64,000 nt of DNA from an uncultured Planctomycetia bacterium (GTDB lineage Bacteria; Omnitrophota; Gorgyraeia; Duberdicusellales; 4484-171). The stretch covers positions 21,239 through 85,238 of the forward strand of contig CAYVYJ010000005.1 in assembly GCA_964455085.1 (NCBI GenBank). Direction: 5' to 3'. The notes beneath the pieces are model-generated. The model worked only from the letters and a program-made list of their open reading frames with translations, was not told the origin of the DNA and made no database searches. Shown piece by piece: positions 14,789 to 27,131 of this stretch (the first letter of the stretch is position 1; every line of letters starts with the position of its first letter). A program made the position numbers and the translations under genes.

Positions 14789-15287
14789 TGGATGACTCCC
14801 TAATCAATCTTGCCACTTCCCCTAGGGTCTGCTTCAGGCTAGGTGAAAACTCAGACCCTAACTCGATTGTTTTCGGCTGAACCCCAAGCATATAAATACC
14901 AGCTTCAGTCTCCTTAGTTAAACATTCCATAAACATTGCCGGAGATATGTCATGGGTAGTAAATCCGCACTTTATGATATCATCTTTTTCTAAAATCTCA
15001 TACTCCCCGGGATCTCTTCCTAAATGCACGGCATCAATAATTAAAACTGTATCGGGTTTCTCTTTAATAATCTTACCGATATAATTCTCCGGTGCCGACC
15101 CAGCATCTAAACAAACTGCTTTAGTCTTCCCCTTTATCGCCTCAATAAGAACTGGTCCAAAACCATCGTCGCCGCGGATAATATTACCGATGCCGACAAT
15201 AACAACCTTTCCTTTGAGTATACTTTTCAATTTGTCTTTCATTGTGATTAAGTATTCAGAGTAGTTTCCCGACGGCATCTGGCGCAA
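14781..15287 (-). CDS. hycI: Hydrogenase maturation endopeptidase (HycI/HybD family)
   Basis: The motif VVIVGIGNIIRGDDGFGPVLIEAI is present and the length is 168 aa. Confidence 0.8.
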   Translation of the reverse strand: MRQMPSGNYSEYLITMKDKLKSILKGKVVIVGIGNIIRGDDGFGPVLIEAIKGKTKAVCLDAGSAPENYIGKIIKEKPDTVLIIDAVHLGRDPGEYEILEKDDIIKCGFTTHDISPAMFMECLTKETEAGIYMLGVQPKTIELGSEFSPSLKQTLGEVARLIRESSNA

Positions 15288-15856
15288 AGAATCTTTACCC
15301 GGTCAGAACGTCCCTGATCCTTTAGGACTGATATGATGTTCTCATCGACTATGCCCAGATTTTTTAGGCCGGCGAGATAAAGTGTGGGGCTGGAAAAACT
15401 GAGCTCACCAAGTCTCTGGTTAATCCAATTCAGGTGGTCAGAGCAAGCAATCGTCTCGCCGCAAATCTCACAAAGCTGCAGTTTCTTCTCGATCTGCTCT
15501 GAAGCTTCACTACGGTTAAAAAAGGAAAGTTCCCAATCACCGGATAACTTAATGCCCTGATTATCGGCAATACAAGCAGCTTGGCACTGGCCGCAGAATA
15601 TACAGGTATCAGTATAGTGAATCATAGCTCTGCGGGGGTTATCTTTATCATTAACGATATCAATATTACCAATTGCTTCTACCGGACAAACTTCTTTACA
15701 GGCCAGACAACCAACACATTTATCCTGATCAAATTTAGGTTGACCCCGAAAATTAGGATGAGCTTTGTGGGGCTCAATGGGAAACTTGGAAGTATAGGGA
15801 CCTTTTATAAGAGCTTTTATTGCTTCAATTAACTCTCTAATCTTGGGTAGTTTCAT
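15248..15856 (-). CDS. NuoI/HycF/MbhN-like 2x[4Fe-4S] subunit with an extra C-terminal Cys-rich tail
   Basis: Two cluster motifs are present, CVGCLACKEVCP and CIFCGQCQAAC. An additional CEICGETIACSDH...CARCRRE lies at the C-terminus. Confidence 0.75.
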   Translation of the reverse strand: MKLPKIRELIEAIKALIKGPYTSKFPIEPHKAHPNFRGQPKFDQDKCVGCLACKEVCPVEAIGNIDIVNDKDNPRRAMIHYTDTCIFCGQCQAACIADNQGIKLSGDWELSFFNRSEASEQIEKKLQLCEICGETIACSDHLNWINQRLGELSFSSPTLYLAGLKNLGIVDENIISVLKDQGRSDRVKILCARCRRETTLNT

Positions 15857-15889
15857 TCCACTTCTCGTTTATTTATAACTTACAACAGT

Positions 15890-16252
15890 TTAGGCCTCTC
15901 CCTCTTTATCTTCAAGATACTTATCAACAACACTCCTCTCCCAAAGTTTTACTCCCGACCGATGTGCGCCCCTGGCAATGGCATGGGCTGCAACCGGAGA
16001 AGTTAGTAGGAGAAAAATCATGCATAAGAGGGCTTTCATCCCGGCAGCTGTGGGACCAGCCACAAGAAAGGCCCCAAACAAAATACTACAGGTACCTAGA
16101 GTAACACACTTGGTAGCTGCCTGCAGACGGTTATAGACATCGGGAAGACGCACTAGGCCTAAGGCACCGATAAGATCAAAAACTAATCCTAAACTAATAA
16201 ATATTAAACCAAGAGAACTACTCATCAAAACTCCTTCCTTAAATGAGACCAC
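15890..16252 (-). CDS. mrpG: Mrp antiporter subunit G-like (MbhC-like)
   Basis: The MnhG-like sequence LIGALGLVRLPDVYNRLQAATK is present. The likely true start is MSSSLG at 16225, which follows AAGGAAGGAG. Confidence 0.7.
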   Translation of the reverse strand: MVSFKEGVLMSSSLGLIFISLGLVFDLIGALGLVRLPDVYNRLQAATKCVTLGTCSILFGAFLVAGPTAAGMKALLCMIFLLLTSPVAAHAIARGAHRSGVKLWERSVVDKYLEDKEGEA

Positions 16253-16340
16253 AATTTATGGAACGAAGTGAACATAAATTGTACGGTCGAATTTATCCTG
16301 AGCGAAGCGAAGGATCTTCTATTCATCAAAACTCCTTCCT
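16221..16340. repeat. 20-bp direct repeats (tcatcaaaactccttcctt) at 16221..16240 and 16321..16340 flank an 80-bp insert that contains a perfect 10-bp-stem hairpin at 16251..16282
   Basis: The repeated sequence encodes both the mrpF C-terminus plus stop and the mrpG RBS plus start. The insert forms the acaatttatg-N12-cataaattgt hairpin. Confidence 0.55.
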
Positions 16341-16705
16341 TCTAAATACTTGGAAAATGCTAAGGTGCTTATAAAACTCTGCAAGGCCCAGGCTATTCCA
16401 ATATCAATATACCAAGATCTCTTGGTAGAAATAGTCAACACTGCACATATTCCCACAACCATAATACCTAAAATATCAATAGCTACTATCCTATCAGCAC
16501 CAGTAGGCCCTTTACAAATACGATAAAGACAGAGAAGGCAAGCCAAAATAAGTATGTAGAGAGCGCGACCTAGGAAACCCAAATAAGGAAGGTCGGGACA
16601 AAAAAGGAAAGGAAGTGGCCGGATTATAATCATACCAACAATCCCGGTTAAAACAATTACTCCAATGAACCATGGCTTCTTTATCATCTTATCCCCTTTA
16701 ATCAA
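16319..16705 (-). CDS. mrpF: Mrp antiporter subunit F-like (MbhB-like)
   Basis: The MnhF-like core CLYRICKGPTGADRIVAIDILG is present. Confidence 0.7.
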   Translation of the reverse strand: MIKGDKMIKKPWFIGVIVLTGIVGMIIIRPLPFLFCPDLPYLGFLGRALYILILACLLCLYRICKGPTGADRIVAIDILGIMVVGICAVLTISTKRSWYIDIGIAWALQSFISTLAFSKYLEGRSFDE

Positions 16706-17195
16706 AAATTTTCTCTAATATTTTTTCAAAACGCTGGACAATGATTTCGGTCGCTTCTTGAACATCCTTTGCCTTCACATTAATCCAGTGTATATACAAA
16801 ATACCTTTATCGCGATCAATATCCACACTCATTGTACCGGGAGTTAAAGTTATTGAGTTAGCTAAGAATGTTAAAGCGGTATCGCTCTTTAAAGCTGTCT
16901 TTACTTTAACAATTCCCGGATTTATCGGTAGCTGTGGATGCAAGACTCGATAGGCAACGTCAATATTTGCTTTGATAACTTCCCACAAAAATACTGGCAA
17001 ATAATAGGCGAAGAAATATAGGTAACGTAAAGGATGTTTTAGCAGATGAGGCCGAGTGATAAATAAATCTCCGGTTAAAATAGTTACCAGAACAGCAACA
17101 AAAATTCCGGCTATAAGATGTTGAGTGTCCGGCACCCAACTTAGCAGGGACCAGATTACAAATGCTATTAAAAGTAAAACTACTCTGCTCTTCAT
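16698..17195 (-). CDS. mrpE: Mrp antiporter subunit E-like (MbhA-like)
   Basis: 165 aa with MnhE-like topology and size. It overlaps its neighbours, consistent with translational coupling. Confidence 0.6.
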   Translation of the reverse strand: MKSRVVLLLIAFVIWSLLSWVPDTQHLIAGIFVAVLVTILTGDLFITRPHLLKHPLRYLYFFAYYLPVFLWEVIKANIDVAYRVLHPQLPINPGIVKVKTALKSDTALTFLANSITLTPGTMSVDIDRDKGILYIHWINVKAKDVQEATEIIVQRFEKILEKIFD

Positions 17196-18700
17196 TGATT
17201 TATCTGGGTTAAAACTAAACTACTATATTTACTGCTTTCTAAAAGAACACCTGAGGCCGGCTGCAGAAAAACTTCTTTTACCCCGGAGGCAAACAAAACT
17301 CCTCCTAGCAAACAAATAAATGCTAATATTAGCATCGAGAGCTTCATCAACGCCGGTACTTCTTTCACTTGGCGCCACCTCTGGCTTAAGTTTCCAAAAA
17401 AAGCATATTTCATAACCTTAACATACATAGCTAAAGTTAATACACTAACTAAAACCAGCCAAAAAGCATACCCATAGTGACCAGCTTCTACGGTTGCCAG
17501 TATAATAAATAGCTTGCTCCAGAAACCACTAAAAGGGGGAACACCGGCGACAGACATAGAAGCAGTTAAATTAGTTAGGCAAGTTAAAGGCATCTTTTTT
17601 CCTAAACCGCCCATCTTTTGTAAATCCCGGGTTCCGGTAGCATATTCTACCGCTCCCGAATTTAGGAATAGAAGCGATTTAAATACTGAGTGATTAAAAA
17701 GATGAAAAAGTCCAGCTAATATACCTAAGGGTGTACCTAAGCCAATAGCCAGAACAATATAACCTACCTGGCTTATCGAGGAATAAGCCAAGAGTCGCTT
17801 AAAATCCCATTGTCCTAAAGCCAGTAATCCTCCGACCACCATAGATATTACCCCCAAGAACATTATTATTGAAGATAGTTCTCGGGTCATCCCTAATAGA
17901 TTATAGAATATTCTAATTAAAGCATAGATTCCCAGCGATTTTATCAATACTCCTGAAAGCATGGCTGATATTGGGGCCGGAGCTGAAGGATGAGCATCAG
18001 GCAACCAAGCATGAAAAGGAACCAGGGCAGCTTTAAGACCAAAACCCATTAAAAATAAAACGCTCACCAGAAGAACCAGGTTAGTAGCCGGTTCTTTAGC
18101 TAAAATAGCCCCCATATCAGCAATATTTAAAGTGGAAGTTAAGCCGTACAAAAGGGCAATGCCTAAAAGGATAAACAAAGACCCTACTGTACCCATAATC
18201 GCATATTTAAAAGCAGCTTCTAACTCATGACGTTCAGTTCCAAAAGCAACCAAAGCATAACTTGCCACCGAAGCAATTTCCAAAAATACAAAGAGATTAA
18301 ATATGTCGCCGGTAATAATCACTCCGTTCATTCCAGCCAACATTAAAAAAAAGAGTGAATAGAACTTCCACTTGGAAGTATACTTTTCCATATAATTTAT
18401 TGAATAGATTACGATGATGAATGCCACTAAATTTACAGTCACTAACATAAATGCAGTTAAACCATCCAAAACCAAGCCGATACCTACCGGTGGTTTCCAA
18501 TTTCCCACGCTATAGACAAGAATCCCCTGATTATTACGTAAGAAGACACTTAAAAAAGATAAAATACAGAGAACAAAAGCAGCTAAAACTCCTAATAGAT
18601 CCGGTGCTGGTTTTATTTTCTTTCCCAGAAGAGAAGTTAAAAAGGCTGCTCCCAAAGGTATAACTACAAATAATGGTATTATGTTAGCTGACGGATTCAT
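17192..18700 (-). CDS. Mrp subunit D / NuoM/N-like proton-pumping antiporter subunit
   Basis: 502 aa and polytopic. The NuoN/MrpD-family GGLAL...HAWLPDAH region is present. Confidence 0.8.
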   Translation of the reverse strand: MNPSANIIPLFVVIPLGAAFLTSLLGKKIKPAPDLLGVLAAFVLCILSFLSVFLRNNQGILVYSVGNWKPPVGIGLVLDGLTAFMLVTVNLVAFIIVIYSINYMEKYTSKWKFYSLFFLMLAGMNGVIITGDIFNLFVFLEIASVASYALVAFGTERHELEAAFKYAIMGTVGSLFILLGIALLYGLTSTLNIADMGAILAKEPATNLVLLVSVLFLMGFGLKAALVPFHAWLPDAHPSAPAPISAMLSGVLIKSLGIYALIRIFYNLLGMTRELSSIIMFLGVISMVVGGLLALGQWDFKRLLAYSSISQVGYIVLAIGLGTPLGILAGLFHLFNHSVFKSLLFLNSGAVEYATGTRDLQKMGGLGKKMPLTCLTNLTASMSVAGVPPFSGFWSKLFIILATVEAGHYGYAFWLVLVSVLTLAMYVKVMKYAFFGNLSQRWRQVKEVPALMKLSMLILAFICLLGGVLFASGVKEVFLQPASGVLLESSKYSSLVLTQINQ

Positions 18701-19041
18701 CCTCTTAACTCCCGAATTTTAGTAATATCAAAAGTACCATATTTCTCATATATCCTCATGGCAATAGCAACTAGTAAGGCAGTAGTAGCCAGACCAATAA
18801 CAATAGCCGTGAGCACCAAAGCATGGGGCAGGGGATCAACCATATTAGAGGCAGAAATATCTCCTTGGGGAGAAAATATCGGCGCTCTACCTTTGATACG
18901 ATAAGCTACCAAGATAAAAAACAAATTAGCGGCATACTCAGATATGATCACCCCGACAATAATCTTAATTATATTACGCTTCCTTAAAATACAATAAAGA
19001 CCGACACAAAAAAGCCCTAAACAAAGTAAATATACAATCAT
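18697..19041 (-). CDS. Mrp subunit C / NuoK-like (MbhG-like)
   Basis: 114 aa with three TM helices; similar to MnhC. Confidence 0.7.
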   Translation of the reverse strand: MIVYLLCLGLFCVGLYCILRKRNIIKIIVGVIISEYAANLFFILVAYRIKGRAPIFSPQGDISASNMVDPLPHALVLTAIVIGLATTALLVAIAMRIYEKYGTFDITKIRELRG

Positions 19042-19541
19042 TCTTTCTTCTCCGGTTCTAGCTTTAACAAAACTAAAGCAACGAATATTGCAAAAAGCCC
19101 GGCGCCGACCTTAAGGCATATCGCTATATTACAAAGAGGGATTATGCCGGCCGAGAATAAACTAAAAACTTTGCCCTTAGCTATGAAATTTAAGAAAAAA
19201 TAACCCCCAGTAAATCCAAGCAGAGCTATGGTCAAAAATAATAAGGCACCGGTGCTTTCAAAAAACGAGACTGCTTTCTTTGGTAAACGCTTAAAAACTA
19301 CCTCTTTACCGTAAGCAAGCATAAGATGAATAAAAGAAAGAGCAATAATAACCCCTCCAGCAAACCCTCCTCCCGGTGATAGATGACCATGGGTAACTAT
19401 ATAAATACCATAAAGAAGTATTAACCCCACCGTAAGACGAGTAATTGTTTTAACAATAACTGACATGCCTTTTTCGTGTTCTCTACTCATCTTCTTCCTC
19501 TGGCGCCTCCCCCGGTCTCCTCCTGCCGATTCTGCGCACAA
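19038..19541 (-). CDS. MnhB-domain membrane subunit (MbhE/F-like)
   Basis: The MnhB motif HLSPGGGFAGG is present. The true start is probably the internal MSVIVK near 19466; the N-terminal 25 aa of the track ORF overlap the upstream gene. Confidence 0.6.
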   Translation of the reverse strand: MCAESAGGDRGRRQRKKMSREHEKGMSVIVKTITRLTVGLILLYGIYIVTHGHLSPGGGFAGGVIIALSFIHLMLAYGKEVVFKRLPKKAVSFFESTGALLFLTIALLGFTGGYFFLNFIAKGKVFSLFSAGIIPLCNIAICLKVGAGLFAIFVALVLLKLEPEKKE

Positions 19542-20031
19542 TAGCTAAAACACCAATTACAGCAGTGAACAATATCGTAGCCTCCCCCAGGGTATCATAA
19601 GCTCTAAAATCCAATATCACTGAAGAAACAACATTAGCTGCCCCGGTTTGAGATAAGCCTTGGTTAAGATAAGCTCTTGCAACCTTCATAACGGGATATC
19701 CGAATTCCGGCAATTCCCTTAAAGCTTTGACCGATATAAACAAAAATACAGCAATAAAAGCTGTAACGATAAAAGTGTTCAGTAACCATCTCCCGGTTGT
19801 TGAAAAAGGAATATCTTTTCTCAAAGTAGCTCTAATCAAAATAATCAAACACAATATCTCAACAACCAGCTGGGTAATGGCTACATCCGGTGCTTTAAGT
19901 ATTAAAAAGACTATGGAAAGCCCTAAACCTACAGCTCCCACAGCTATTACTGAGGAAAGAAGATCCTTTAACTCAGTGGCAACAATTGCCCCAACAATCA
20001 TAAATATTAGTAAAATATATAACTCAAACAT
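19483..20031 (-). CDS. MrpB-like subunit (DUF4040 plus MnhB domain; MbhD/E-like)
   Basis: The MnhB domain VVSSVILDFRAYDTLGEATILFTAV is present. Confidence 0.65.
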   Translation of the reverse strand: MFELYILLIFMIVGAIVATELKDLLSSVIAVGAVGLGLSIVFLILKAPDVAITQLVVEILCLIILIRATLRKDIPFSTTGRWLLNTFIVTAFIAVFLFISVKALRELPEFGYPVMKVARAYLNQGLSQTGAANVVSSVILDFRAYDTLGEATILFTAVIGVLAIVRRIGRRRPGEAPEEEDE

Positions 20032-20034: not shown

Positions 20035-21690
20035 TTAGCCCCGTAAAATGTAAAAAATCATTATCATAGCTAAAAGACACCAAGCCAAATATGTAGGAAG
20101 TACGCCATTGTGAACGTAACGTAATATCCTGATAAAAACAAAAGTTACCCTTCTGCTTAAATCGTAAAGATCGAAAACTTTTTTCTCAGCTAATTTATAA
20201 ATGGCCTTTAAAATCCCTATTTCCTGGATTGTATTGTAAAACTCAGTTCCTGAAACCCGCATATCTAGGTGTCTTCTTAAATCCTCACCGCCTACAAAGC
20301 CTGCTGTTTCCCTTATTTTGGCAGCTTTGCCTAAAAGATAGATTACCATCCCAATTGCAATTCCCACAATTATTAATAACGTGGCTAAGCTTACGTTCCA
20401 GATACCAAGAAATTCTACCCCGCCCCCTAAACTGGGGAAAATAAACATCTTAAGCGGAATCTGATAGGCAAAAACTCCAAAAATAACACAGAGTGAGGCT
20501 AAGAAGACTTGAGGAAACCACATATTTGGTCCAACATCCTTTAGGACTTTACCAGCGATCCCTGACTCTGAAGACGGCTGGCCTAAAAATACAGCATGGA
20601 TTAATTTCATAAAACTAGCTAAAGTAAGGGCGCTACCAAACATAGCCGCGGTTAGCCAAATTACCCATAGGTATCCTCCGCTCTTGGCGGTTTCAATTAT
20701 GCCCTGATAAATCATCCACTTAGAAGCAAATCCATTAAAAGGTGGTACTCCTGATATAGCTAAGGACGCTAACAAGAAGGCTCCAAAAGTAATCGGCATA
20801 ACTTTAGCCAAACCACCTAATTTTTCTAAATCACTTGTTCCAGCTTTCTTTTCTACCGCCCCACCGCCCAAAAAGAGACAAGATTTATAAATAGTATTAT
20901 TGAGCATATGAAACAGGCCCCCAGCAATACCCAAGAGACTGCCGGTACCAATACCCAAAACCATATACCCCACCTGACTTACGGCATGATAACCTAAGAG
21001 TCGTTTTAGGTCATGTTGAATTAAGGCCATCATAACTGCCGCCACAATAGTAATACTACCTACCAGCATTAAAAAAGTATTCATACCTTTATCCATCTGA
21101 AAAATATTTAAAGACAATCTGACTAAGAAGTAAATACCCAGAAGCTTATCTAGAGAAGCTGGCAGAAAGGCAGCCACCGGAGTCGGCGCATCTTCGGCGG
21201 TATCAGGCACCCAGGTATGAAAAGGCATAGCGCCAGCTTTAGCAAAAGCACCGGCAGCCAGACAAAGATAAGCCCAGACAGCTATCTTACTATCTAAAGC
21301 AATGTTTAACGTATCCATCTGCGCTACTCCTGATAGCTTCCAAACCAAGGCTAAACCCAAAAGCATAAAAGCGTCAGTGCCACCGATTATTATAAAAGCC
21401 TTTTTTGCCGTAGCCGGAGTCTTATCGCTCTTACCAAAACTGATTAAAAGGTATAAGAGTAAACCTAAGAAACCCCAGAAGACCATAAACAAAATAAGAT
21501 TGTTAGAAAAGACAGCACCTAAGGAAACAATAAAGGTAAGCACTATATATAGGTAATAACGAAACAGTCCTTTGCTTCCACGCATAAAGCCTAATGAGTA
21601 GCTAACCGTAAGGATAGTGAATATCCCGATAAATATACCTACAAAACCGGAAAGTTTATCGATCTTAAATAACTCGCCTGCTAAGTTCAT
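20035..21690 (-). CDS. MrpA/D / NuoL-like antiporter subunit (MbhH-like)
   Basis: 551 aa and polytopic. The NuoL/MrpD-family core (HTWVPDTAEDAPTPV) is present. Confidence 0.8.
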   Translation of the reverse strand: MNLAGELFKIDKLSGFVGIFIGIFTILTVSYSLGFMRGSKGLFRYYLYIVLTFIVSLGAVFSNNLILFMVFWGFLGLLLYLLISFGKSDKTPATAKKAFIIIGGTDAFMLLGLALVWKLSGVAQMDTLNIALDSKIAVWAYLCLAAGAFAKAGAMPFHTWVPDTAEDAPTPVAAFLPASLDKLLGIYFLVRLSLNIFQMDKGMNTFLMLVGSITIVAAVMMALIQHDLKRLLGYHAVSQVGYMVLGIGTGSLLGIAGGLFHMLNNTIYKSCLFLGGGAVEKKAGTSDLEKLGGLAKVMPITFGAFLLASLAISGVPPFNGFASKWMIYQGIIETAKSGGYLWVIWLTAAMFGSALTLASFMKLIHAVFLGQPSSESGIAGKVLKDVGPNMWFPQVFLASLCVIFGVFAYQIPLKMFIFPSLGGGVEFLGIWNVSLATLLIIVGIAIGMVIYLLGKAAKIRETAGFVGGEDLRRHLDMRVSGTEFYNTIQEIGILKAIYKLAEKKVFDLYDLSRRVTFVFIRILRYVHNGVLPTYLAWCLLAMIMIFYILRG

Positions 21691-22871
21691 TTAATACCCA
21701 ATTTACTTTTTATCTTTGCGGTCTTCTCCTGAGAGAGCCGGATTAAGTCTTCTCCGCCATAGAGCTTCTTACCCCTGGTATCACGCACAGCCATCCTTTC
21801 GGTACAACAATAGCAAGGATCAATAGCGGCAAAAATTATCGTAGCATCAGCTATAGTCTGGCCAACAACAGTTGATTTATAAGTTGGTAGATTCATAAAG
21901 GTTGGTGCCCGTATCTTATGGCGAGCCGGCCGGTTAGTGCCGTCACTGACCAGATAATGAAAACACTCTCCTCGGGGAGCCTCAATCTGGCCGATTCCTT
22001 CTCCGGGAGGAATACTTTTAATATTCGCGTCAATATCACCTCCAGGCAGATTTAGGAGACAGTGTTTTATTATCTTTACTGACTCAAAAGTCTCTAAAAT
22101 CCTTACTACAGCTTTATCAAAAACATCACCGTTTGAGGTCACGATCATCTTCCAATCAACTTGATCATAAGCTCCGTAAGGGCAATCTTTTCTTAAGTCT
22201 TTGGCTACTCCTGAGGCCCGGGAAGTTGGCCCGAGAGCTGAATAATCTATGGCTTCTTCTTTAGTGAGAACACCGACCCTCTTGGTTCGGGCATGCAGGA
22301 CCGGATCGTCAATAACTGCCTTTTTAAGCATTGTCAATGTCGGTATAATTGAATCGATTTTCTTAATAACCCCGGGGATATCACTGGATTTTATATCTCT
22401 TCTTACCCCTCCTGGTTTAAACATAGCGTAATTATTTCTATTACCCGCTAAAACCTCCATTGCATCCAAGATCTCTTCTCTTAACTTCCAGGCCCACATA
22501 TAAACAGTATTGTAGCCTAAGAAGTGACCGGCTAAACCCAACCACAAAAGATGTGAGTGTATTCTCTCGCCCTCAGCAATTATGGTCCGAATATACTTAG
22601 CCCGCGGTGGTACTTCTATCGGTATCACATCCTCAACGGCCCGGGTATAAGCAAAAGGGTGACTGGTAGAGCAAATACCGCAGATTCTTTCGACAACAAA
22701 AGTAGATTGGTCAAAGGTCTTCATCTCAGAGAGTTTTTCAATACCCCGGTGATTATAACCAACCTCGACATCAACCCCTACGATTTTCTCACCTTCTACA
22801 GTAAGAGTGAAAAACTCCGGTTCTTCCTGCAGGGGATGATAAGGCCCTATCGGTACTATTGTTCTAGCCAT
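21687..22871 (-). CDS. [NiFe] hydrogenase large subunit, group 4 (NuoD-like; MbhL/EchE/HycE-type)
   Basis: Both metal-binding motifs are present: N-terminal RICGICSTSH (RxCGxCxxxH) and C-terminal DPCYCCTER (DPCxxCxxR, the group-4 variant). The length is 394 aa. Confidence 0.85.
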   Translation of the reverse strand: MARTIVPIGPYHPLQEEPEFFTLTVEGEKIVGVDVEVGYNHRGIEKLSEMKTFDQSTFVVERICGICSTSHPFAYTRAVEDVIPIEVPPRAKYIRTIIAEGERIHSHLLWLGLAGHFLGYNTVYMWAWKLREEILDAMEVLAGNRNNYAMFKPGGVRRDIKSSDIPGVIKKIDSIIPTLTMLKKAVIDDPVLHARTKRVGVLTKEEAIDYSALGPTSRASGVAKDLRKDCPYGAYDQVDWKMIVTSNGDVFDKAVVRILETFESVKIIKHCLLNLPGGDIDANIKSIPPGEGIGQIEAPRGECFHYLVSDGTNRPARHKIRAPTFMNLPTYKSTVVGQTIADATIIFAAIDPCYCCTERMAVRDTRGKKLYGGEDLIRLSQEKTAKIKSKLGIK

Positions 22872-23344
22872 TACACTCCTCTATCCCTAATTGCATTCTT
22901 ATCCCACTCTTGATAATCCCGACGCAAAGGATACACGCCTTCCGGCCAATCATCAGGCAAAAGCAGCCTTTTTAAGTCCGGATGACCCTTAAATTTTATC
23001 CCTAACATCTCGTAAATTTCTCGTTCAATCCAATTAGCAGCTTTAAATATCGGAGCAAGAGAAGCAATTTCCAGTTTACTTTTATCAAGTTTTATTCGTA
23101 AAGAAAGTACGAAATTCATAGCATCAAAGGTAAAGTGATAGAGAATCTCCATGTGCGAACGGGCATCTAGACCCGAGGCGATGCTAAACCTGGCTCCTAA
23201 GTCTTTAAAGGTATAGCTGGCTATTTTAGTTAAAGCAGCAGGTTTAATCTCCAGATATACCCGTTTAGAAGATTTATCGTTAAGCTCAATAATATCTTCC
23301 TTAAATCTTTGGCTTATGTTCTTTAAAACCGCGTCTTTATCCAT
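22871..23344 (-). CDS. NuoC-like subunit (MbhK/HycE N-domain-like)
   Basis: 157 aa, belonging to the 30-kDa-subunit family. Confidence 0.7.
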   Translation of the reverse strand: MDKDAVLKNISQRFKEDIIELNDKSSKRVYLEIKPAALTKIASYTFKDLGARFSIASGLDARSHMEILYHFTFDAMNFVLSLRIKLDKSKLEIASLAPIFKAANWIEREIYEMLGIKFKGHPDLKRLLLPDDWPEGVYPLRRDYQEWDKNAIRDRGV

Positions 23345-23784
23345 TATTTACCCTTTTCTTCAATCGTGCTTTCAACCTTTCCGATCAGCTTAACTACACC
23401 GGCAATAATTGCTTCTGGTTTAGGTGGACAACCAGGGATGTAAACATCAACAGGAATAATCTTATCCACCGGAACCGGACAATTATAACTGTGAATGAAC
23501 ATCCCCCGGGACAAAGAGCACTCTCCGATTGCCACCACCAGACAAGGCTTAGGTATCTGCTCATATAACCTCTTCACCCTCTCCATTGACTTTCGGTTAG
23601 CTGAACCAGTAACTAAAAGAACGTCAGCGTGTCTTATGCTCCCGGCTAAAATCATTCCAAATCTTTCAATATCAAACCGGGGAGTAAGACAATCCAATAT
23701 CTCAATATCACAATTATTACAGCTTCCAGTAGCAAGATGGAAGACCCAAGGTGATTTTAATAGTGCTTTTAATTTTAGGCTCAT
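23344..23784 (-). CDS. [NiFe] hydrogenase small subunit, group 4 (NuoB-like; MbhJ/HycG)
   Basis: The four cluster cysteines are present: ATGSCNNCDIE, GECSLSRGMF and YIPGCPPKPEAI. Confidence 0.8.
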   Translation of the reverse strand: MSLKLKALLKSPWVFHLATGSCNNCDIEILDCLTPRFDIERFGMILAGSIRHADVLLVTGSANRKSMERVKRLYEQIPKPCLVVAIGECSLSRGMFIHSYNCPVPVDKIIPVDVYIPGCPPKPEAIIAGVVKLIGKVESTIEEKGK

Positions 23785-23785
23785 T

Positions 23786-24709
23786 TTACTTTCCGTTTAA
23801 GGCTAAAATCACCGCTAACCCAGCAATTATAGTCATTGGACCCCAAAAGAACCGCATTGCTTGACCAATTTTTACCCGCGGGTTAGTATTTCTAATAACT
23901 GTTATCAGTGCTACTAATCCCAGGTACTTTAAGGCTCCCAGAATTAAACCTATCCCAGTGAATTTTAAACCGCCCATAAGAAGAATCATTATGAAAAAAG
24001 GTAAGACAAATAAAAGCATATTTTTAGTAAGTCGATAGAGGGCTAAGGCGGTACCGGAATACTCGATTAAAGGTCCGCCGATTATCTCGGTCTCAGCCTC
24101 TGGGATATCAAAAGGGACTAAAGCTAACTTTGCCTGCATACAAATTATAAGAACAATAAACGCCAATACCCCGGATAGATTCCCCAAGATTACTCCCTGT
24201 TGAGCTTGAAAAGTTATAATCTGGCCTAAACTTAAAGAATAATTGGATTTTATAACCGGGACTAATATTGCTAAAACAAAGGGAAGCTCATAGCTTAAGA
24301 TCAGCTTCATCTCCCGCGATGCCCCGATACTTGCTAAGGGATTACGCGAAGCAAAACCACCCAGAATAATGCTCATCGAAGGGATGGTTAATAAATACAA
24401 TACTACAATCAAATCTCCCAAAAAGCTCTTATCCGGCCAAATATTGTTTAACCAAAGAAGAGTCGATACTAAAATTACACTGGCAAAACCAATAACTGGA
24501 GCAATTAAAAAAGTTAACTTTGACGAACCAACCGGTACCAGAGTCTCCTTACCAAGAAGTTTTACGATATCGATCAATGGCTGCAACAGAGGCGGACCAA
24601 CTCGATATTGAATCCGGGCAGTGACCTTCCGGTCGACCCAACTAGCTAAAAGCCCGATAATGACCGTTGATGCAAACCCCAGCACTATAAAATAAAATAA
24701 GTAGATCAT
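23786..24709 (-). CDS. NuoH/HycD/MbhM-like membrane subunit
   Basis: 307 aa. The N-terminal NuoH-family motif is RKVTARIQYRVGPP. Confidence 0.8.
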   Translation of the reverse strand: MIYLFYFIVLGFASTVIIGLLASWVDRKVTARIQYRVGPPLLQPLIDIVKLLGKETLVPVGSSKLTFLIAPVIGFASVILVSTLLWLNNIWPDKSFLGDLIVVLYLLTIPSMSIILGGFASRNPLASIGASREMKLILSYELPFVLAILVPVIKSNYSLSLGQIITFQAQQGVILGNLSGVLAFIVLIICMQAKLALVPFDIPEAETEIIGGPLIEYSGTALALYRLTKNMLLFVLPFFIMILLMGGLKFTGIGLILGALKYLGLVALITVIRNTNPRVKIGQAMRFFWGPMTIIAGLAVILALNGK

Positions 24710-25272
24710 GCTTTTTCTCTATCCCAGTGGGTTGAATGGACAATTAGATTCTCTCCCACTAAGAAGGTATTTGAATCAAGCTCAACGTCGCCTGGTTTTA
24801 AACTTAAGGCACCGTAGCTGCAAGTCTTTATACATAAAGGTTCCTGGTCAAGATCCCTGCGATCTAAACAAAAGTCACAATTATGGATTAAGTAAGGGAC
24901 GTTTTCAGGATATATCGATCCATAAGGACAGGCATGAGAACAGGATTTACAACTTACACAACGCATATTATGCCGGATGAGAAGCTTATCTTTATCTTGC
25001 TGTTGTTCTAAGGCTTCAAAGGGACAGGCTCCGACACAATGCGGTTCTTCGCAGCGGCGGCAGACTAAAGCATAGGTGGCTAGCTCAGCTACCGAGATAA
25101 TACCGTTGTTGCCGGGATCTTGAGGATGATAAAAATAACTGCACTCAATCAAACAATCCTTACATTGGCCAGAAGCGCAGACGTCCAGATCAATAAATAG
25201 CCGCCTGTCTCTTCCTCTCCCAGCTTTTAAATTTAATTTACCTTGGTGTAGTTGTTCAGCGCTTGAGCTCAT
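24706..25272 (-). CDS. HycB/HydN-like polyferredoxin (multiple 4Fe-4S motifs)
   Basis: 16 cysteines arranged as CxxCxxCxxxCP-type repeats (CRRCEEPHCVGACP, CVSCKSCSHACP, CDFC...CIKTCSYGAL). Confidence 0.7.
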   Translation of the reverse strand: MSSSAEQLHQGKLNLKAGRGRDRRLFIDLDVCASGQCKDCLIECSYFYHPQDPGNNGIISVAELATYALVCRRCEEPHCVGACPFEALEQQQDKDKLLIRHNMRCVSCKSCSHACPYGSIYPENVPYLIHNCDFCLDRRDLDQEPLCIKTCSYGALSLKPGDVELDSNTFLVGENLIVHSTHWDREKA

Positions 25273-25273
25273 T

Positions 25274-26098
25274 TTAGTCCCAAATTTCGTGAAAATCTTT
25301 TATCTTATCGTAAGTAAAGACCGGACCGTCTTTGCAAGCATAGTAAGTCCCAATCCGGCAATGCCCGCACTTACCAATACCACAAGACATGTTCTTCTCC
25401 ATTGAAAGGTAAATATTCTCATCCTTAAACCCTGATTCCAAGAGCTTAAAAGTAACGAATTTCATCATTATCGGCGGTCCGCAAACCACAGCAACTCCTC
25501 TTTCACAGTCCATGGCTAAACCATCCAGAATTGTGGTTACCAGTCCCACATGGCCCTTCCACTTCTCATCACCCTTATCTACGGTAAGCCTTAAATCTAA
25601 ATCGTCTCGCTTTGCCCAATCGCTGACTTCACGCTTATAAACCAACTCCTGAGGGTTTCGACAACCACCTCGAAACAATAGTTTTTTAATTTCCCCTCTT
25701 ATTGTAAAAAGAGTATAGATAAGACTGCGTAAAGGAGCAAAACCAACCCCACCACCAATAACCAAAACTTCCCGGTCTTTAAACTTATCCAGTGGGTAAC
25801 CCAGACCTAAGGGACCTCTTACTCCGATAGAGGTGCCTTTCTTAAGTTCATGAATCTTATCGGTAACCTTACCAACCTTCATTACAGTTATTTCCATCGT
25901 ATCCTTTACTGATGGCTTTGAAGAGGGAGTAAAAGGGGCTTCTCCTACGCCAGGGATAGTCACTTCGATGAATTGACCAGTAGAAAAGCTTAGCGCTTCT
26001 TTAGGTTTAAATTTTATAGTCTTTATGGTCGGTGTCTCATCAATAACCTCAAGAACCTTAGCTTCGATCGAACGATAAGGATTTTTACATTTAGACAT
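25274..26098 (-). CDS. AsrB/PyrK/sulfhydrogenase-gamma-like FAD/NAD(P)-binding oxidoreductase with a C-terminal 2Fe-2S
   Basis: It has an FNR-like fold with the motif VIGGGVGFAPL and a terminal CGIGKCGHCRIG...CKDGPVF. Confidence 0.75.
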   Translation of the reverse strand: MSKCKNPYRSIEAKVLEVIDETPTIKTIKFKPKEALSFSTGQFIEVTIPGVGEAPFTPSSKPSVKDTMEITVMKVGKVTDKIHELKKGTSIGVRGPLGLGYPLDKFKDREVLVIGGGVGFAPLRSLIYTLFTIRGEIKKLLFRGGCRNPQELVYKREVSDWAKRDDLDLRLTVDKGDEKWKGHVGLVTTILDGLAMDCERGVAVVCGPPIMMKFVTFKLLESGFKDENIYLSMEKNMSCGIGKCGHCRIGTYYACKDGPVFTYDKIKDFHEIWD

Positions 26099-27131
26099 CG
26101 GATACCAATTTATTTAATACTTTTCTAATATCGATCTTTGCCGGACAAGCCGAAATACAGCGGCCGCAACCAGTACAAGCATAAATGCCGGCAACTTTGG
26201 GAAAAAAATCAAATTTTTTCTCAAATCTGTTCCGCAACCGCATCCAGAGCTTCTCCCGGGGATTAGCTCCTCCGGCAACCCGGGCAAAATCTTTTATCAT
26301 ACATGAATCCCAGATTCGCAGCCGAGCCATACGCTGTTGATCTTTTTGGTCATAAAGAAGAAAACAGTGACAAGTAGGACATATGGTATTACAAGCTCCA
26401 CACTCAAGGCAAGTTTTAGCCTCATCAGCCCAGATACTAGAATCATATTTCTTTTCAATAATGCCCTCAAAAGCCTCTTGGTTGGATAAACTATTATCTT
26501 TAATATTTTTATCGACCATATTTTTAATTGCAAGCCGCTGTTGGTCTCTCTGGGCAATAAGCTGGCTACTACCAGCTTCAAAGAATGAAGAATTTTTAGC
26601 TATGAGCTCACGGCCCTTTTCGGAACCAGATTCGATAATAAAACCACCTTTGACTTCTGAAAGATTAAGGTCAAAATCACCTTGAGGATAAGGCATCAAA
26701 CCTAAAGCCAGACAAAAACAAGTATCAATTACACAAGTGCAATCTGCGGCAATAATAAGGTTCCTCTTCCGGGCGGTAAAGTAGAAAGGATCTTGACACT
26801 CCTGCTCATCTCCTGAAGAAGCGGAAAATACGTAATCTTGAACCTTAAAGCCTTTTAAATCGCAAGCCTTAGCTCCGACAATCGCTAACGGCTTGCCCTT
26901 AGTTTGAGGAAGCTGGTCCTTAAAATCTTCAGCTACTACTTCTCGAGCCCGGTAAAAGAATGATTTTAAAGGCTCATAAGCCCTTACTTCTCCGATAGTG
27001 ATATCCGCATCAGAACCCTCATATTTTTTATAGAAACGCTGCTGACCCTTTTTTATCGGCAGATAGACAGAATAGTCTTGGCTTAAATTATCTAAAAACT
27101 TAGCAAAATTACCTAAGGAGATATAATTCAT
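26091..27131 (-). CDS. AsrA/sulfhydrogenase-beta-like FeS subunit
   Basis: CLECGACNTICPTCHC and CTGCGRCISACP are present. The length is 346 aa and the cysteine spacing matches AsrA. Confidence 0.7.
   Translation of the reverse strand: MNYISLGNFAKFLDNLSQDYSVYLPIKKGQQRFYKKYEGSDADITIGEVRAYEPLKSFFYRAREVVAEDFKDQLPQTKGKPLAIVGAKACDLKGFKVQDYVFSASSGDEQECQDPFYFTARKRNLIIAADCTCVIDTCFCLALGLMPYPQGDFDLNLSEVKGGFIIESGSEKGRELIAKNSSFFEAGSSQLIAQRDQQRLAIKNMVDKNIKDNSLSNQEAFEGIIEKKYDSSIWADEAKTCLECGACNTICPTCHCFLLYDQKDQQRMARLRIWDSCMIKDFARVAGGANPREKLWMRLRNRFEKKFDFFPKVAGIYACTGCGRCISACPAKIDIRKVLNKLVSDV

What the first reader, a model, noticed from the sequence alone, without database searches (positions are those of the whole stretch)
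15248..27131. Operon for a group-4 [NiFe] hydrogenase with a full Mrp antiporter module and an AsrA/AsrB-like FeS-flavoprotein pair
The 11.9-kb structural cluster encodes, in transcriptional order, an AsrA-like FeS subunit, an AsrB-like FAD/NAD(P)-binding 2Fe-2S subunit and a HycB-like polyferredoxin. Next are the NuoH-, NuoB- and NuoC-like subunits and a true [NiFe] large subunit with RICGICSTSH and DPCYCCTER. Seven Mrp-type subunits follow (two MrpD/NuoL-like pumps plus B, B', C, E, F, G), then a NuoI-like subunit. The Mrp module marks it as an ion-translocating respiratory hydrogenase like Mbh/Mbx. The AsrA/AsrB-like pair resembles the NAD(P)H-binding beta/gamma subunits of soluble sulfhydrogenases. 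It implies a pyridine-nucleotide-linked, possibly bidirectional, energy-coupled enzyme rather than the ferredoxin-only Mbh. The combination and gene order, with NuoH first and NuoI last, are atypical.
Basis: partly seen in the sequence, partly recalled or inferred. Interest (0 to 1): 0.7.

Follow-up and report, generated by a model that had tools for sequence, protein, structure and literature searches.

The report
Hun-type membrane [NiFe] hydrogenase operon
This is a real 16-gene operon for a membrane-bound, ion-pumping nickel-iron hydrogenase with an NAD(P)H-type input module, but it belongs to the already named, biochemically untested "Hun" complex that is common in uncultured anaerobic bacteria.

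Summary
Sixteen tightly packed minus-strand genes (27131 to 15248) encode sulfhydrogenase beta/gamma-like (AsrA/AsrB-like) proteins and a HycB-like ferredoxin. They also encode NuoH/B/C-like subunits, a true [NiFe] large subunit, eight Mrp-type membrane subunits and a HycF/NuoI-like subunit.

It is not new. The gene order and the CGIC/CYCC signature match the "Hun" complex of Glass et al. (bioRxiv 10.1101/536078), which was reported in Omnitrophica, the source phylum here. HunG-like genes occur in at least 597 species genomes, with A-to-P synteny conserved across many phyla.

The large subunit is Mbh/HycE-like, not Mbs-like, and hunAB are translationally coupled to the rest.

What I add:
- HunA/B are full-length homologues of the solved NADPH-dependent sulfhydrogenase I beta/gamma, and the FAD, NAD(P) and 2Fe-2S motifs are at least 90% conserved.
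- A Rex operator sits behind the operon promoter. Such boxes mark hunA or rex-hunA in at least 24 related loci.

This favours an NAD(P)H-linked, redox-regulated enzyme over the published ferredoxin-only model, but it is unproven.

In passing, the operon runs on into hycI, a short hypA, a HypC::HydE-like fusion, rex and a divergent hydG. That fusion follows [NiFe] hydrogenase genes in dozens of loci and appears undescribed.

The parts
27220..27248 (-). Sigma-70-like promoter: TTGACA, 17-nt spacer, TACGAT, with TG before the -10 element
   Evidence: Joint-best (10 of 12) among five promoter-like matches in 10.5-28.5 kb and the only one with a TG before the -10. Sequence read. It lies in the only sizeable intergenic gap upstream of hunA.
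27190..27207 (.). Rex operator TTGTGATTTTATTCACAA, an 18-bp palindrome with one mismatch to TTGTGAA-N4-TTCACAA. It starts 13 nt downstream of the -10 element.
   Evidence: It is the only site with 2 or fewer mismatches in the 64-kb window. Equivalent boxes lie upstream of hunA or rex-hunA in at least 24 related loci, accounting for 26 of the 30 boxes found in 1.35 Mb.
26091..27131 (-). hunA: sulfhydrogenase-beta/AsrA-like Fe-S protein (346 aa)
   Evidence: Fer4_22 4e-31. ShyB 179, HydB 149 and AsrA 120 bits, all below the equivalog cut-offs. PDB 9NEZ_B at E 1e-39, residues 7-336. Cysteine motifs are conserved in 67 orthologues.
25274..26098 (-). hunB: sulfhydrogenase-gamma/AsrB-like FAD, NAD(P) and [2Fe-2S] protein (274 aa)
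   Evidence: FAD_binding_6, NAD_binding_1 and DHODB_Fe-S_bind. PDB 9NEZ_C at E 1e-52. The motifs PFTPSS, GGGxGxAP, VCGPP and CGxGKCGHC are conserved in at least 90% of 69 orthologues. Position 147 is always Lys or Arg.
24706..25272 (-). hunC: HycB/DmsB-type poly-[4Fe-4S] ferredoxin (188 aa)
   Evidence: Fer4_11 9e-16. Best PDB hits are FdnH, NrfC and HycB3/4 of HDCR. Four cysteine groups are conserved.
23786..24709 (-). hunD: NuoH/MbhM-like membrane subunit (307 aa)
   Evidence: PF00146 4e-65.
23344..23784 (-). hunE: NuoB-like hydrogenase small subunit (146 aa)
   Evidence: PF01058 1e-28. NuoB subfamily 141 bits, above the cut-off of 116. CxxC...C...C(PP) cysteines seen in the sequence.
22871..23344 (-). 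hunF: NuoC-like subunit (157 aa)
   Evidence: PF00329 2e-29.
21687..22871 (-). hunG: [NiFe] large subunit (394 aa) with L1 RICGICSTSH, L2 DPCYCCTER and a 35-residue C-terminal extension
   Evidence: Both motifs are conserved in at least 90% of 81 orthologues. The sequence is 82-91% identical to many Omnitrophota proteins.
20035..21690 (-). hunH: antiporter-like subunit 1 (551 aa). It lacks about 70 N-terminal residues found in its homologues and has a NuoL/MbsH'-like C-terminal extension.
   Evidence: PF00361 3e-55. NuoL model aligned 8-548 to 77-608 of 615. PDB MbhH 182 bits from chain residue 78, and 6U8Y_X aligned 13-546 to 69-613.
19483..20031 (-). hunI: fused MbhD+MbhE, equivalent to the MrpA C-terminal part (DUF4040) (182 aa)
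   Evidence: PF13244 and PF20501. NCBIfam aligns it to residues of about 600-790 of MrpA.
19038..19490 (-). hunJ: MrpB/MnhB-like (150 aa). The mechanical ORF runs to 19541 from a TTG start.
   Evidence: PF04039 8e-25. Called as 150 aa on identical public contigs. NF006248 107 bits, above the cut-off of 92.
18697..19041 (-). hunK: MrpC/NuoK-like (114 aa)
   Evidence: PF00420 2e-25.
17192..18700 (-). hunL: antiporter-like subunit 2, MrpD/MbhH-like (502 aa)
   Evidence: PF00361 3e-71 and PF00662. The MrpD subfamily model scores 403 bits, below its curated cut-off of 662, so this is a best hit, not family membership.
16698..17195 (-). hunM: MrpE (165 aa)
   Evidence: PF01899 2e-47.
16319..16687 (-). 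hunN: MrpF (122 aa). The mechanical ORF runs to 16705.
   Evidence: PF04066 3e-17. Gene call on an identical contig.
15890..16252 (-). hunO: MrpG (120 aa)
   Evidence: PF03334 2e-26.
15248..15856 (-). hunP: HycF/NuoI-like 2x[4Fe-4S] subunit (202 aa) with a conserved C-terminal CxxC...CxxC extension
   Evidence: Fer4 families. FHL iron-sulfur subunit 94 bits. PDB HycF 7Z0S_F is the best hit. Conservation.
14781..15242 (-). hycI: large-subunit C-terminal endopeptidase
   Evidence: PF01750. TIGR00072 109 bits, above the cut-off of 47. It follows hunP in most related loci.
14546..14788 (-). Short hypA (80 aa). It has the N-terminal MHE nickel-binding half only, with no zinc domain.
   Evidence: The match covers only model positions 1-67 of 116 in TIGR00100. 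Sequence. The same 80-aa form occurs in relatives.
13202..14533 (-). HypC::HydE-like radical-SAM fusion (443 aa)
   Evidence: PF01455 and PF04055. hypC_hupF 48.9 bits (cut-off 48). HydE 245 bits over residues 96-406 (cut-off 254.6). MCYAIPG and CX3CX2C are invariant.
12562..13221 (-). rex: redox-sensing NADH/NAD+ repressor (219 aa)
   Evidence: NF003995 255 bits, above the cut-off of 126. It overlaps its neighbours by 20 and 4 nt.
11066..12565 (-). Divergent hydG (499 aa). The C-terminal motif is CTAGYRCGRTGKC...C instead of the canonical CxxCYR...C.
   Evidence: TIGR03955 454 bits, above the cut-off of 312. Motif comparison.
11081..11093 (-). Terminator-like hairpin at the end of hydG; a possible end of the 16-kb transcription unit
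   Evidence: Consensus scan only. This is weak evidence.

Best explanation
The region is a hun operon (HunA-P, 'group 4g' [NiFe] hydrogenase) of a Candidatus Omnitrophota bacterium.

Architecture (shown by homology): it encodes a complex-I-like membrane enzyme with four parts.
- A peripheral catalytic module: HunE (NuoB-like), HunF (NuoC-like), HunG ([NiFe] large subunit) and HunP (HycF/NuoI-like), anchored on HunD (NuoH-like).
- A membrane arm made of a complete Mrp set with two antiporter-like pumps (HunH and HunL).
- An input module: HunB, an FNR-type flavoprotein with FAD, an NAD(P)H site and a [2Fe-2S] cluster, and HunA, a multi-[4Fe-4S] protein. These are the counterparts of the NADPH-oxidising gamma and beta subunits of Pyrococcus sulfhydrogenase I.
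- A wire: HunC, a HycB-type four-cluster ferredoxin, links the input module to the catalytic module (this linking role is inferred).

Electron path (inferred): NAD(P)H, then FAD and [2Fe-2S] in HunB, then HunA, HunC, HunP, HunE and the [NiFe] site, where protons are reduced to H2.

Regulation: the operon is repressed by Rex, and its own rex gene lies within the unit. It should therefore be switched on when NADH/NAD+ rises. This points to a role in disposing of excess reducing equivalents as H2.

Energy coupling (inferred): NAD(P)H to H2 is uphill except at very low H2. The Mrp arm most likely lets an inward Na+/H+ flux drive H2 evolution, with the gradient made by Rnf, pyrophosphatase or ATPase. 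At low or high H2 it could run the other way. Ferredoxin may be a second donor.

Maturation genes: downstream genes in the same unit mature the [NiFe] site (HycI, a short HypA, a HypC::HydE-like fusion and HydG).
For: Identity as Hun:
- 16 genes in the published order, with the CGIC/CYCC motif.
- 82-91% identity to Omnitrophota and Atribacteria large subunits.
- A-to-P synteny in 80 loci from more than 10 phyla.

A true hydrogenase:
- All four Ni-binding cysteines are present and conserved.
- MbhL and HycE are the closest solved structures.
- There is a C-terminal extension, with hycI and hypA adjacent.

One transcription unit:
- Overlaps or gaps of 12 nt or less for 18 of 20 junctions from hunA to hydG.
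- The best promoter match is upstream of hunA only.
- Co-transcription has been reported in Atribacteria (Bird et al., PMC6469976).

NAD(P)H module:
- Full-length matches to solved sulfhydrogenase I gamma and beta.
- FAD, NAD(P) (GGGxGxAP, CGPP) and 2Fe-2S motifs are conserved in at least 90% of 69 orthologues.
- An invariant Lys or Arg aligns with the Arg of the NADPH-dependent gamma subunit.

Rex control:
- A one-mismatch operator lies 13 nt after the -10 element and is the only such site in the window.
- 26 of 30 Rex boxes in 1.35 Mb of related loci lie directly upstream of hunA or of a rex gene that precedes hunA.
- rex is adjacent to hun in about 20 of 80 loci.
Against: - No biochemical data exist for any Hun enzyme.
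- To my knowledge (not tested here), every characterised group-4 hydrogenase uses ferredoxin, formate or CO, not NAD(P)H.
- NAD(P)H to H2 is endergonic by about 18 kJ/mol under standard conditions, so the proposed direction needs ion-gradient input or very low H2. That is inference.
- By my recollection of other bacteria (not tested here), Rex regulons also include ferredoxin-dependent hydrogenases, so Rex control shows a redox-balancing role but not the direct donor.
- Only about a third of related loci with an upstream flank show a recognisable Rex box.
- NADH versus NADPH cannot be decided from sequence.
- Glass et al. proposed ferredoxin as the donor to HunAB.
Confidence: 0.55

Rival explanations
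1. The published Hun model: reduced ferredoxin donates electrons to HunABC. H2 is evolved exergonically and the Mrp arm exports H+/Na+ for ATP synthesis, as in Pyrococcus Mbh. The flavoprotein acts only as an electron conduit.
For: Glass et al. and the Atribacteria and Omnitrophota genome papers assume this. MbhL is the closest solved large subunit. The reaction is thermodynamically favourable, and ion export fits an Mrp module.
Against: Characterised Mbh needs no flavoprotein or HycB-like subunit (my recollection of the Mbh literature: ferredoxin is thought to dock on MbhN). HunB keeps every FNR-type NAD(P)-binding motif under strong conservation. It is a full-length homologue of the NADPH-binding gamma subunit of sulfhydrogenase I. 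Widespread Rex control ties expression to NADH/NAD+.
Confidence: 0.25
2. An uptake enzyme: H2 is oxidised at HunG and NAD(P)+ is reduced at HunB. The roughly 18 kJ/mol released pumps Na+/H+ outward. This would supply reductant and energy for lithotrophic or acetogenic growth.
For: The reaction is exergonic in this direction at moderate H2. Sulfhydrogenase I is reversible (my recollection, not tested here). Some Omnitrophota with this enzyme are reported to encode the Wood-Ljungdahl pathway (Williams et al.).
Against: Rex derepression at high NADH would switch on an NADH-producing enzyme exactly when NADH is already in excess. The carriers are mostly inferred fermenters.
Confidence: 0.1
3. A sulfur- or polysulfide-reducing complex: HunAB act as the sulfur reductase, like the sulfhydrogenase beta/gamma activity or Mbs. 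Electrons would come from H2 or ferredoxin.
For: By my recollection (not tested here), sulfhydrogenase has S0-reductase activity attributed to beta/gamma. Bird et al. mention possible reduction of sulfur compounds. HunH resembles MbsH' over its full length.
Against: The large subunit is far from MbsL (165 bits against 297 for MbhL) and keeps a complete, conserved Ni-Fe site with a dedicated protease. No AsrC or sulfur-handling genes are in the cluster.
Confidence: 0.05

Closest known systems
Hun complex (HunA-P) of Atribacteria, Omnitrophica, Elusimicrobia and Kosmotoga. Glass et al., bioRxiv 10.1101/536078; by my recollection, published in Environ Microbiol 2021.
   Same: Same 16 genes in the same order. 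AsrA/AsrB-like HunAB without AsrC. A HycB-like HunC. A large subunit with the CGIC...CYCC motif. A full Mrp set. Found in the same phylum.
   Different: Nothing structural. This work adds Rex control, homology to the solved sulfhydrogenase beta/gamma, and the attached maturation genes. The paper proposes ferredoxin as the donor and does not mention Rex or maturation genes.
Membrane-bound hydrogenase Mbh of Pyrococcus furiosus (group 4d, PDB 6CFW)
   Same: The closest solved large subunit (297 bits) and the closest antiporter-like subunit (MbhH, 182 bits). MbhD/E, MnhB, MrpC/E/F/G-type subunits are present, as are NuoB/C/H/I-like subunits.
   Different: By my recollection (not tested here), Mbh has one pump subunit, its Mrp genes come first in the operon, it has no flavoprotein, beta-like or HycB-like subunits, and it uses ferredoxin. 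Hun has two pumps, starts with the input module and ends with the NuoI-like gene.
Soluble sulfhydrogenase I (group 3b) of Pyrococcus furiosus, beta and gamma subunits (PDB 9NEZ/9NF0)
   Same: HunA and HunB align over their full length to beta (E 1e-39) and gamma (E 1e-52). The FAD, NAD(P) and 2Fe-2S motifs and the Fe-S cysteine patterns are shared.
   Different: The hydrogenase subunits attached here are group-4 (NuoB/NuoD-like) and membrane-bound. They are not the group-3 alpha/delta subunits.
Formate hydrogenlyase FHL-1 of E. coli (group 4a, PDB 7Z0S)
   Same: HycE is the second-closest large subunit (271 bits) and the alignment runs into the C-terminal extension. HunP is closest to HycF. 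A HycB-type connector and a HycI protease are present.
   Different: There is no formate dehydrogenase and no NuoC-NuoD fusion. Hun has an Mrp arm with two pumps and the small Mrp subunits.
Membrane-bound sulfane reductase MBS/Mbx (PDB 6U8Y)
   Same: It has two antiporter-like subunits. HunH aligns end to end with MbsH'.
   Different: MbsL scores only 165 bits. By my recollection, MbsL has no Ni-Fe site, whereas Hun keeps all four cysteines and its maturation genes.

Membership tests
Hun complex (Glass et al.) | 16-gene operon hunA-P in the order AsrA-like, AsrB-like, HycB-like, NuoH, NuoB, NuoC, large subunit, Mrp genes, NuoI-like | tested here: met
   The same order is seen in 80 related loci. 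Paper text.
Hun complex (Glass et al.) | Large-subunit metal-site motifs CGIC (L1) and CYCC (L2) | tested here: met
   RICGICSTSH and DPCYCCTER, conserved in at least 90% of 81 orthologues.
Hun complex (Glass et al.) | HunAB similar to AsrAB, with no AsrC in the operon | tested here: met
   AsrA 120 bits and AsrB 229 bits, both below the equivalog cut-offs. No siroheme subunit among the neighbouring genes scanned, about 2-41 kb of the window.
Hun complex (Glass et al.) | Close sequence relationship to HunG of Atribacteria and Omnitrophica | tested here: met
   83% identity to Atribacteria-labelled proteins and 82-91% to Omnitrophota proteins.
Group 4 [NiFe] hydrogenase | NuoD-like large subunit with both CxxC Ni-Fe motifs, plus a NuoB-like small subunit carrying one [4Fe-4S] site | tested here: met
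Group 4g subgroup (HydDB) | Assignment by the HydDB classifier | not testable with these tools
   No classifier is available here. Glass et al. and Williams et al. report 4g for these enzymes, and Glass et al. note that HunG is distant from other 4g sequences.
Mbh sensu stricto (group 4d) | mbhA-N gene order, a single antiporter-like subunit, and ferredoxin as the only donor with no extra input subunits | tested here: not met
   Different gene order, two pump subunits, and three extra input subunits.
Mbx/MBS sulfane reductase | Large subunit without a complete Ni-Fe site; closest relatives are MbsL | tested here: not met
   All four cysteines are present. MbsL scores 165 bits against 297 for MbhL.
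Formate hydrogenlyase (group 4a) | Formate dehydrogenase H partner and a NuoC-NuoD-fused HycE | tested here: not met
   No molybdopterin protein in the operon. hunF and hunG are separate genes.
Sulfhydrogenase (group 3b) | Group-3 alpha and delta hydrogenase subunits together with beta and gamma | tested here: not met
   Beta/gamma homologues are present, but the hydrogenase subunits are NuoD/NuoB-type. ShyA and HydA score only 29-45 bits.
Rex regulon member | Rex operator (TTGTGAA-N4-TTCACAA) in the promoter region, with a Rex protein encoded in the genome | tested here: met
   A one-mismatch site at 27190-27207, just downstream of the -10 element. Rex at 255 bits. The box is conserved across related loci. 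Binding itself was not tested.
NAD(P)H-dependent FNR-type flavoprotein (HunB) | FAD-binding motif, GxGxxP and CGPP nucleotide motifs, and a [2Fe-2S] cysteine cluster | tested here: met
   The actual cofactor and the NADH/NADPH preference cannot be tested with these tools.

The most novel reading that the evidence does not exclude
Hun would be a chemiosmotically driven NAD(P)H:proton oxidoreductase, a 'reverse complex I' that makes H2. In this lineage its [NiFe] cofactor would be built not (only) by HypCDEF. Instead a HypC::HydE-like radical-SAM fusion would work with a divergent HydG, so that CO and CN ligands derived from tyrosine are delivered to a [NiFe] hydrogenase.

What the evidence shows:
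- The fusion and hydG lie inside the hun transcription unit here.
- The fusion follows the structural genes of group-4 (Hun and one other kind), group-3b-like and group-1-like [NiFe] hydrogenases in dozens of loci.
- It never co-occurs locally with hypD, hypF or a free hypC.
- It occupies the position that hypF-hypC-hypD occupy in sister genomes.

The evidence does not exclude that HypDEF are encoded elsewhere in these genomes.
Probability: 0.15. Interest if true: 0.85.

Novelty: already known. Interest (0 to 1): 0.4.

Why it matters
Hun-type enzymes are encoded in at least 597 species-level genomes. These include Omnitrophota, Atribacterota, Elusimicrobiota, Hydrogenedentota, Fermentibacteria, Spirochaetota, Planctomycetota, Nitrospirota and a cultured Desulfosarcina. 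These groups are common in anoxic sediments and the subsurface.

If the donor is NAD(P)H rather than ferredoxin, this would be the first group-4 hydrogenase linking the pyridine-nucleotide pool to H2 through an ion gradient. That would change how H2 production, syntrophy and energy budgets are modelled for these organisms.

As it stands, the operon is a good, typical example of a known but uncharacterised complex. The Rex link and the cultured carriers make the donor question directly testable.

Tried and rejected
- A first Rex-box search with the wrong spacer (N6) gave only chance-level hits. The correct N4 pattern gave the single promoter-proximal site.
- Mbx/Mbs identity was rejected.
- A separate asrAB transcription unit was rejected.
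- A literature search on 'HunG/HunA' as whole words was swamped by author names and returned only the Glass preprint as relevant.
- No accessible paper was found for the sulfhydrogenase I structure 9NEZ, so NADPH-contacting residues could not be mapped.
- NADH versus NADPH could not be decided. Position 147 is always Lys or Arg, as in the NADPH-dependent gamma subunit. By my recollection, NADH-specific NqrF has an Arg there too.
- I tried to test whether fusion-bearing genomes lack HypD by matching contig-length fingerprints between hit lists. HunG contigs split into six that carry the fusion and seven that carry HypD, with no overlap. However, only the best 120 HypD hits are listed, so absence is not shown.
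- No hypD, hypE or hypF was found in the parts of the window scanned. The window is only 64 kb.
- Structure prediction was not used. Sequence matches to solved structures were already unambiguous.

Full report
**What is there.**
The minus strand between 27131 and 15248 carries 16 consecutive ORFs. In transcriptional order, their family matches are as follows:
- A Fer4_22 iron-sulfur protein, most similar to sulfhydrogenase beta (ShyB/HydB) and AsrA.
- An FNR-type flavoprotein with FAD-binding, NAD-binding and DHODB-type [2Fe-2S] domains (AsrB / sulfhydrogenase gamma-like).
- A Fer4_11 (HycB/DmsB-type) poly-ferredoxin.
- NuoH-, NuoB- and NuoC-like subunits.
- A 394-aa NuoD-like [NiFe] large subunit carrying RICGICSTSH and DPCYCCTER.
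- An antiporter-like protein of 551 aa.
- A fused MbhD+MbhE protein, then MnhB, MrpC/NuoK, a second antiporter-like protein of 502 aa, MrpE, MrpF and MrpG.
- A HycF/NuoI-like 2x[4Fe-4S] protein.

The only slip is that there are eight Mrp-type genes, not seven.

**One transcription unit.**
From hunA to hunM, junctions are overlaps of 1-8 nt or gaps of 1-3 nt. The largest gaps in the operon are 66 and 33 nt, near its end. One of the five top-scoring (10 of 12) sigma-70-like matches in the scanned 18 kb, and the only one of them with a TG before the -10, lies in the 170-nt gap upstream of hunA (TTGACA-17-TACGAT). The genes upstream are unrelated LPS heptosyltransferases.

The tight packing continues downstream through five more genes, ending near a terminator-like hairpin at about 11.08 kb:
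- hycI
- an 80-aa hypA
- a HypC::HydE-like fusion
- rex
- hydG

The functional cluster is therefore about 16 kb and 21 genes, larger than the reported span.

**Source and relatives.**
The large subunit is 100% identical to a protein already in NCBI. It is 82-91% identical to very many proteins from Candidatus Omnitrophota MAGs, with some labelled Atribacteria or Elusimicrobia.

In the best 80 loci the A-to-P order is conserved almost without exception. These loci are labelled Omnitrophota, Hydrogenedentota, Fermentibacteria/Aegiribacteria, Spirochaetota, Nitrospirota, Nitrospinaceae, Elusimicrobiota, Sumerlaeota, Planctomycetota, Kiritimatiellia and Margulisiibacteriota, and include the cultured Desulfosarcina variabilis. 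Every locus that holds the upstream flank has hunA, hunB and hunC in front of hunD, apart from one (L019) where hunB and one (L046) where hunA was not detected; in two Spirochaetaceae loci (L045, L048) hunD itself lies downstream with the Mrp genes.

**It is already described.**
Glass et al. (bioRxiv 10.1101/536078) defined exactly this 16-subunit 'Hun' complex:
- HunAB similar to AsrAB, with AsrC missing.
- HunC, then HunD-G, Mrp-like HunH-O, and HunP.
- HunG classified by HydDB as group 4g but distant from other 4g sequences.
- A distinguishing CGIC...CYCC motif.

They found it in Atribacteria, Firmicutes, Omnitrophica, Elusimicrobia, Bacteroidetes and cultured Kosmotoga.

Williams et al. 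(PMC8542988) list 'group 4g, Mrp-linked' hydrogenases in Omnitrophota. Bird et al. (PMC6469976) report the Atribacteria complex as cotranscribed with the adjacent oxidoreductase, and mention ferredoxin or NADH as donors. Other Atribacteria papers simply call it Mbh.

Against solved structures, the large subunit scores as follows:
- 297 bits with Pyrococcus MbhL (6CFW)
- 271 bits with E. coli HycE (7Z0S)
- 165 bits with MbsL (6U8Y)

It is therefore not Mbx/Mbs-like. Both Ni-Fe motifs are conserved in at least 90% of 81 orthologues. The protein has a 35-residue extension after the L2 arginine, like HycE, and a HycI-family protease gene follows the operon. The asrAB-like genes are not a separate unit (see above).

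**The input module.**
HunB aligns over residues 5-266 to the gamma subunit of Pyrococcus sulfhydrogenase I at E 1e-52. HunA aligns over residues 7-336 to the beta subunit at E 1e-39 (PDB 9NEZ). The next-best matches to HunB are NAD-binding PyrK, NfnA and NqrF.

Across 69 HunB orthologues from many phyla, the following are conserved at 90% or more:
- The FAD motif (GEAPFTPSS).
- The nucleotide motifs GGGxGxAP and VCGPP.
- The [2Fe-2S] motif CGxGKCGHC...C.

The residue aligned with the gamma-subunit Arg after the second strand of the nucleotide domain is always Lys or Arg. This is compatible with NADPH but not diagnostic.

HunC has four cysteine groups of the HycB/FdnH/NrfC type. HunP is closest to HycF, the subunit that contacts HycB in formate hydrogenlyase (my recollection of the 7Z0S structure). 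A chain HunB-HunA-HunC-HunP-HunE-HunG is therefore the natural inference. It is not shown.

**The membrane arm.**
HunH is closest to MbhH but starts about 70 residues into its homologues. It aligns end to end with NuoL and MbsH', including their C-terminal extension. HunL is a full-length MrpD/MbhH-like protein. With two pump subunits plus MrpA-C-terminal, B, C, E, F and G equivalents, the arm resembles MBS more than Mbh.

**Rex control (new here, as far as I could find).**
A bona fide rex gene (255 bits against a cut-off of 126) sits inside the unit. Thirteen nucleotides after the -10 element lies TTGTGATTTTATTCACAA, one mismatch from the Rex consensus TTGTGAA-N4-TTCACAA. It is the only site with 2 or fewer mismatches in the 64-kb window.

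In 1.35 Mb of related loci there are 30 such sites. Twenty-six of them lie within about 240 nt upstream of hunA, or upstream of a rex gene that directly precedes hunA. They occur in MAGs assigned to at least seven phyla. rex itself is adjacent to hun in about 20 of the 80 loci. Glass et al. do not mention Rex.

By the established behaviour of Rex (my knowledge, not tested here), it leaves DNA when NADH/NAD+ rises. This control argues that Hun is expressed to relieve NADH excess. It supports a redox-balancing, H2-evolving role. It argues against an H2-uptake role that would make more NAD(P)H. It does not prove the direct donor, because by my recollection Rex regulons elsewhere include ferredoxin-dependent hydrogenases.

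**Mechanism I consider most likely (confidence about 0.55).**
Hun is an NAD(P)H-linked, Rex-controlled, ion-coupled hydrogenase.

From standard potentials (about -320 mV for NAD(P)H and -414 mV for H+/H2), H2 evolution from NAD(P)H costs about 18 kJ/mol unless H2 is very low. The Mrp arm would then use an inward Na+/H+ flux to drive the reaction. The gradient could come from Rnf, pyrophosphatase or ATPase, which Williams et al. report in these genomes. That would achieve chemiosmotically what confurcating [FeFe] hydrogenases achieve with ferredoxin. Ferredoxin may be an additional donor.

Rival models:
- The published ferredoxin-only, ion-exporting model (about 0.25).
- H2 uptake with NAD(P)+ reduction (about 0.1).
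- Sulfur reduction (about 0.05).

**Noticed beside the finding: the maturation genes.**
The gene after hypA encodes a 443-aa fusion with two parts:
- A HypC domain: invariant MCYAIPG, passing the hypC_hupF cut-off.
- A HydE-like radical-SAM domain: 245 bits over residues 96-406, with an invariant CX3CX2C motif.

All 120 best database homologues keep both domains, and those that carry a source name are labelled Omnitrophota/Omnitrophica or just 'bacterium'.

I fetched 86 loci around the fusion. Wherever the upstream flank was long enough, with only a few exceptions, the gene sits directly after [NiFe] structural genes plus hycI (and often hypA). These were of four kinds: Hun, a group-3b-like enzyme, another group-4 enzyme, and a Tat-exported group-1-like enzyme. 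A hydG often follows.

Further observations:
- None of these loci shows hypD, hypF or a free hypC.
- Among Hun loci, the position after hunP-hycI-hypA is occupied either by hypF(short)-hypC-hypD (14 loci) or by the fusion with rex and/or hydG, or on its own (5 loci plus this window), never both.
- Loci that also hold an [FeFe] hydrogenase or a second hydG carry a second, free HydE-like gene only 33-37% identical to the fusion. The fusion is therefore a separate paralogue.
- The window's HydG passes the HydG cut-off. It belongs to a subclass with CTAGYRCGRTGxC...C in place of the canonical CxxCYR...C auxiliary-cluster motif.
- I found no paper on this.

It suggests, but does not show, a radical-SAM/HydG-based supply of CO and CN ligands to [NiFe] hydrogenases. 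Whether these genomes lack hypDEF could not be determined.

**Verdict.**
The structural interpretation is right, and the NAD(P)H inference is reasonable and now better supported. The system itself is a known kind, so interest in the finding as stated is moderate. The adjacent maturation module is the more surprising item and deserves its own follow-up.

Noticed in passing
window 13202-14533 (-); also L084-L169: A HypC::HydE-like radical-SAM fusion (443 aa) lies inside the hun transcription unit. Homologues keep both domains in all 120 best hits. In dozens of metagenomic and genomic loci the gene directly follows [NiFe] hydrogenase structural genes plus hycI/hypA, for Hun, a second group-4 type, group-3b-like and group-1-like enzymes. 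It is never found next to hypD, hypF or a free hypC. It is only 33-37% identical to the free HydE-like gene found in loci that also hold an [FeFe] hydrogenase or a second hydG. No literature was found. It may point to a HydG/radical-SAM route to the [NiFe] Fe(CN)2CO group.
   Followed up: partly
window 11066-12565 (-): A HydG homologue (454 bits, above the HydG cut-off) has an altered C-terminal auxiliary-cluster motif, CTAGYRCGRTGKC...C, instead of the canonical CxxCYR...C. This subclass (61-80% identical) is mostly found next to the fusion and rex. Canonical-motif HydGs in related loci are only 40-52% identical.
   Followed up: partly
window 14546-14788 (-): HypA is only 80 aa. It has the N-terminal MHE nickel-binding half and no zinc-ribbon domain. 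The same short form follows hycI in many related Hun loci.
   Followed up: partly
L005, L007, L011-L013, L016, L017, L020, L021, L023, L050 (about 0.5-1 kb after hunP-hycI-hypA; L050 has no hypA): In sister Omnitrophota genomes without the fusion, the genes after hypA are a short (about 350 aa) HypF-like protein, hypC and hypD. By my recollection canonical HypF is about 750 aa, so this is a truncated form.
   Followed up: no
window 27302-27613 (-); L009 downstream of the fusion: A 103-aa predicted membrane protein with no family match begins MCYAVP, which resembles the HypC N-terminus. A 54%-identical homologue sits right after the HypC::HydE fusion in locus L009, so it may belong to the hydrogenase cluster.
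   Followed up: no
L026, L040, L045, L047, L048 (Spirochaetota-labelled MAGs, plus one labelled only 'uncultured bacterium'): Split variants of the hun cluster. hunA-G plus hunP and hycI form one block (without hunD in L045 and L048). The Mrp genes are either divergently encoded upstream or placed after hycI together with hunD.
   Followed up: no
L033 (NZ_CP159846.1, Desulfosarcina variabilis str. Montpellier): A cultured sulfate reducer with a complete genome carries a full hunA-P plus hycI cluster, with proteins 57-80% identical to the window's. It could serve for biochemical tests.
   Followed up: no
window 344-580 (-) and 784-856 (-): A cobalamin riboswitch (92.6 bits) and a tRNA gene lie at the low-coordinate end of the window.
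   Followed up: no
window 27647-38653 (-): A long run of LPS and lipid A genes lies directly upstream of the operon: three heptosyltransferases, glycosyltransferases, a lipid A acyltransferase, LpxK and a Kdo transferase. This is consistent with a diderm envelope.
   Followed up: no
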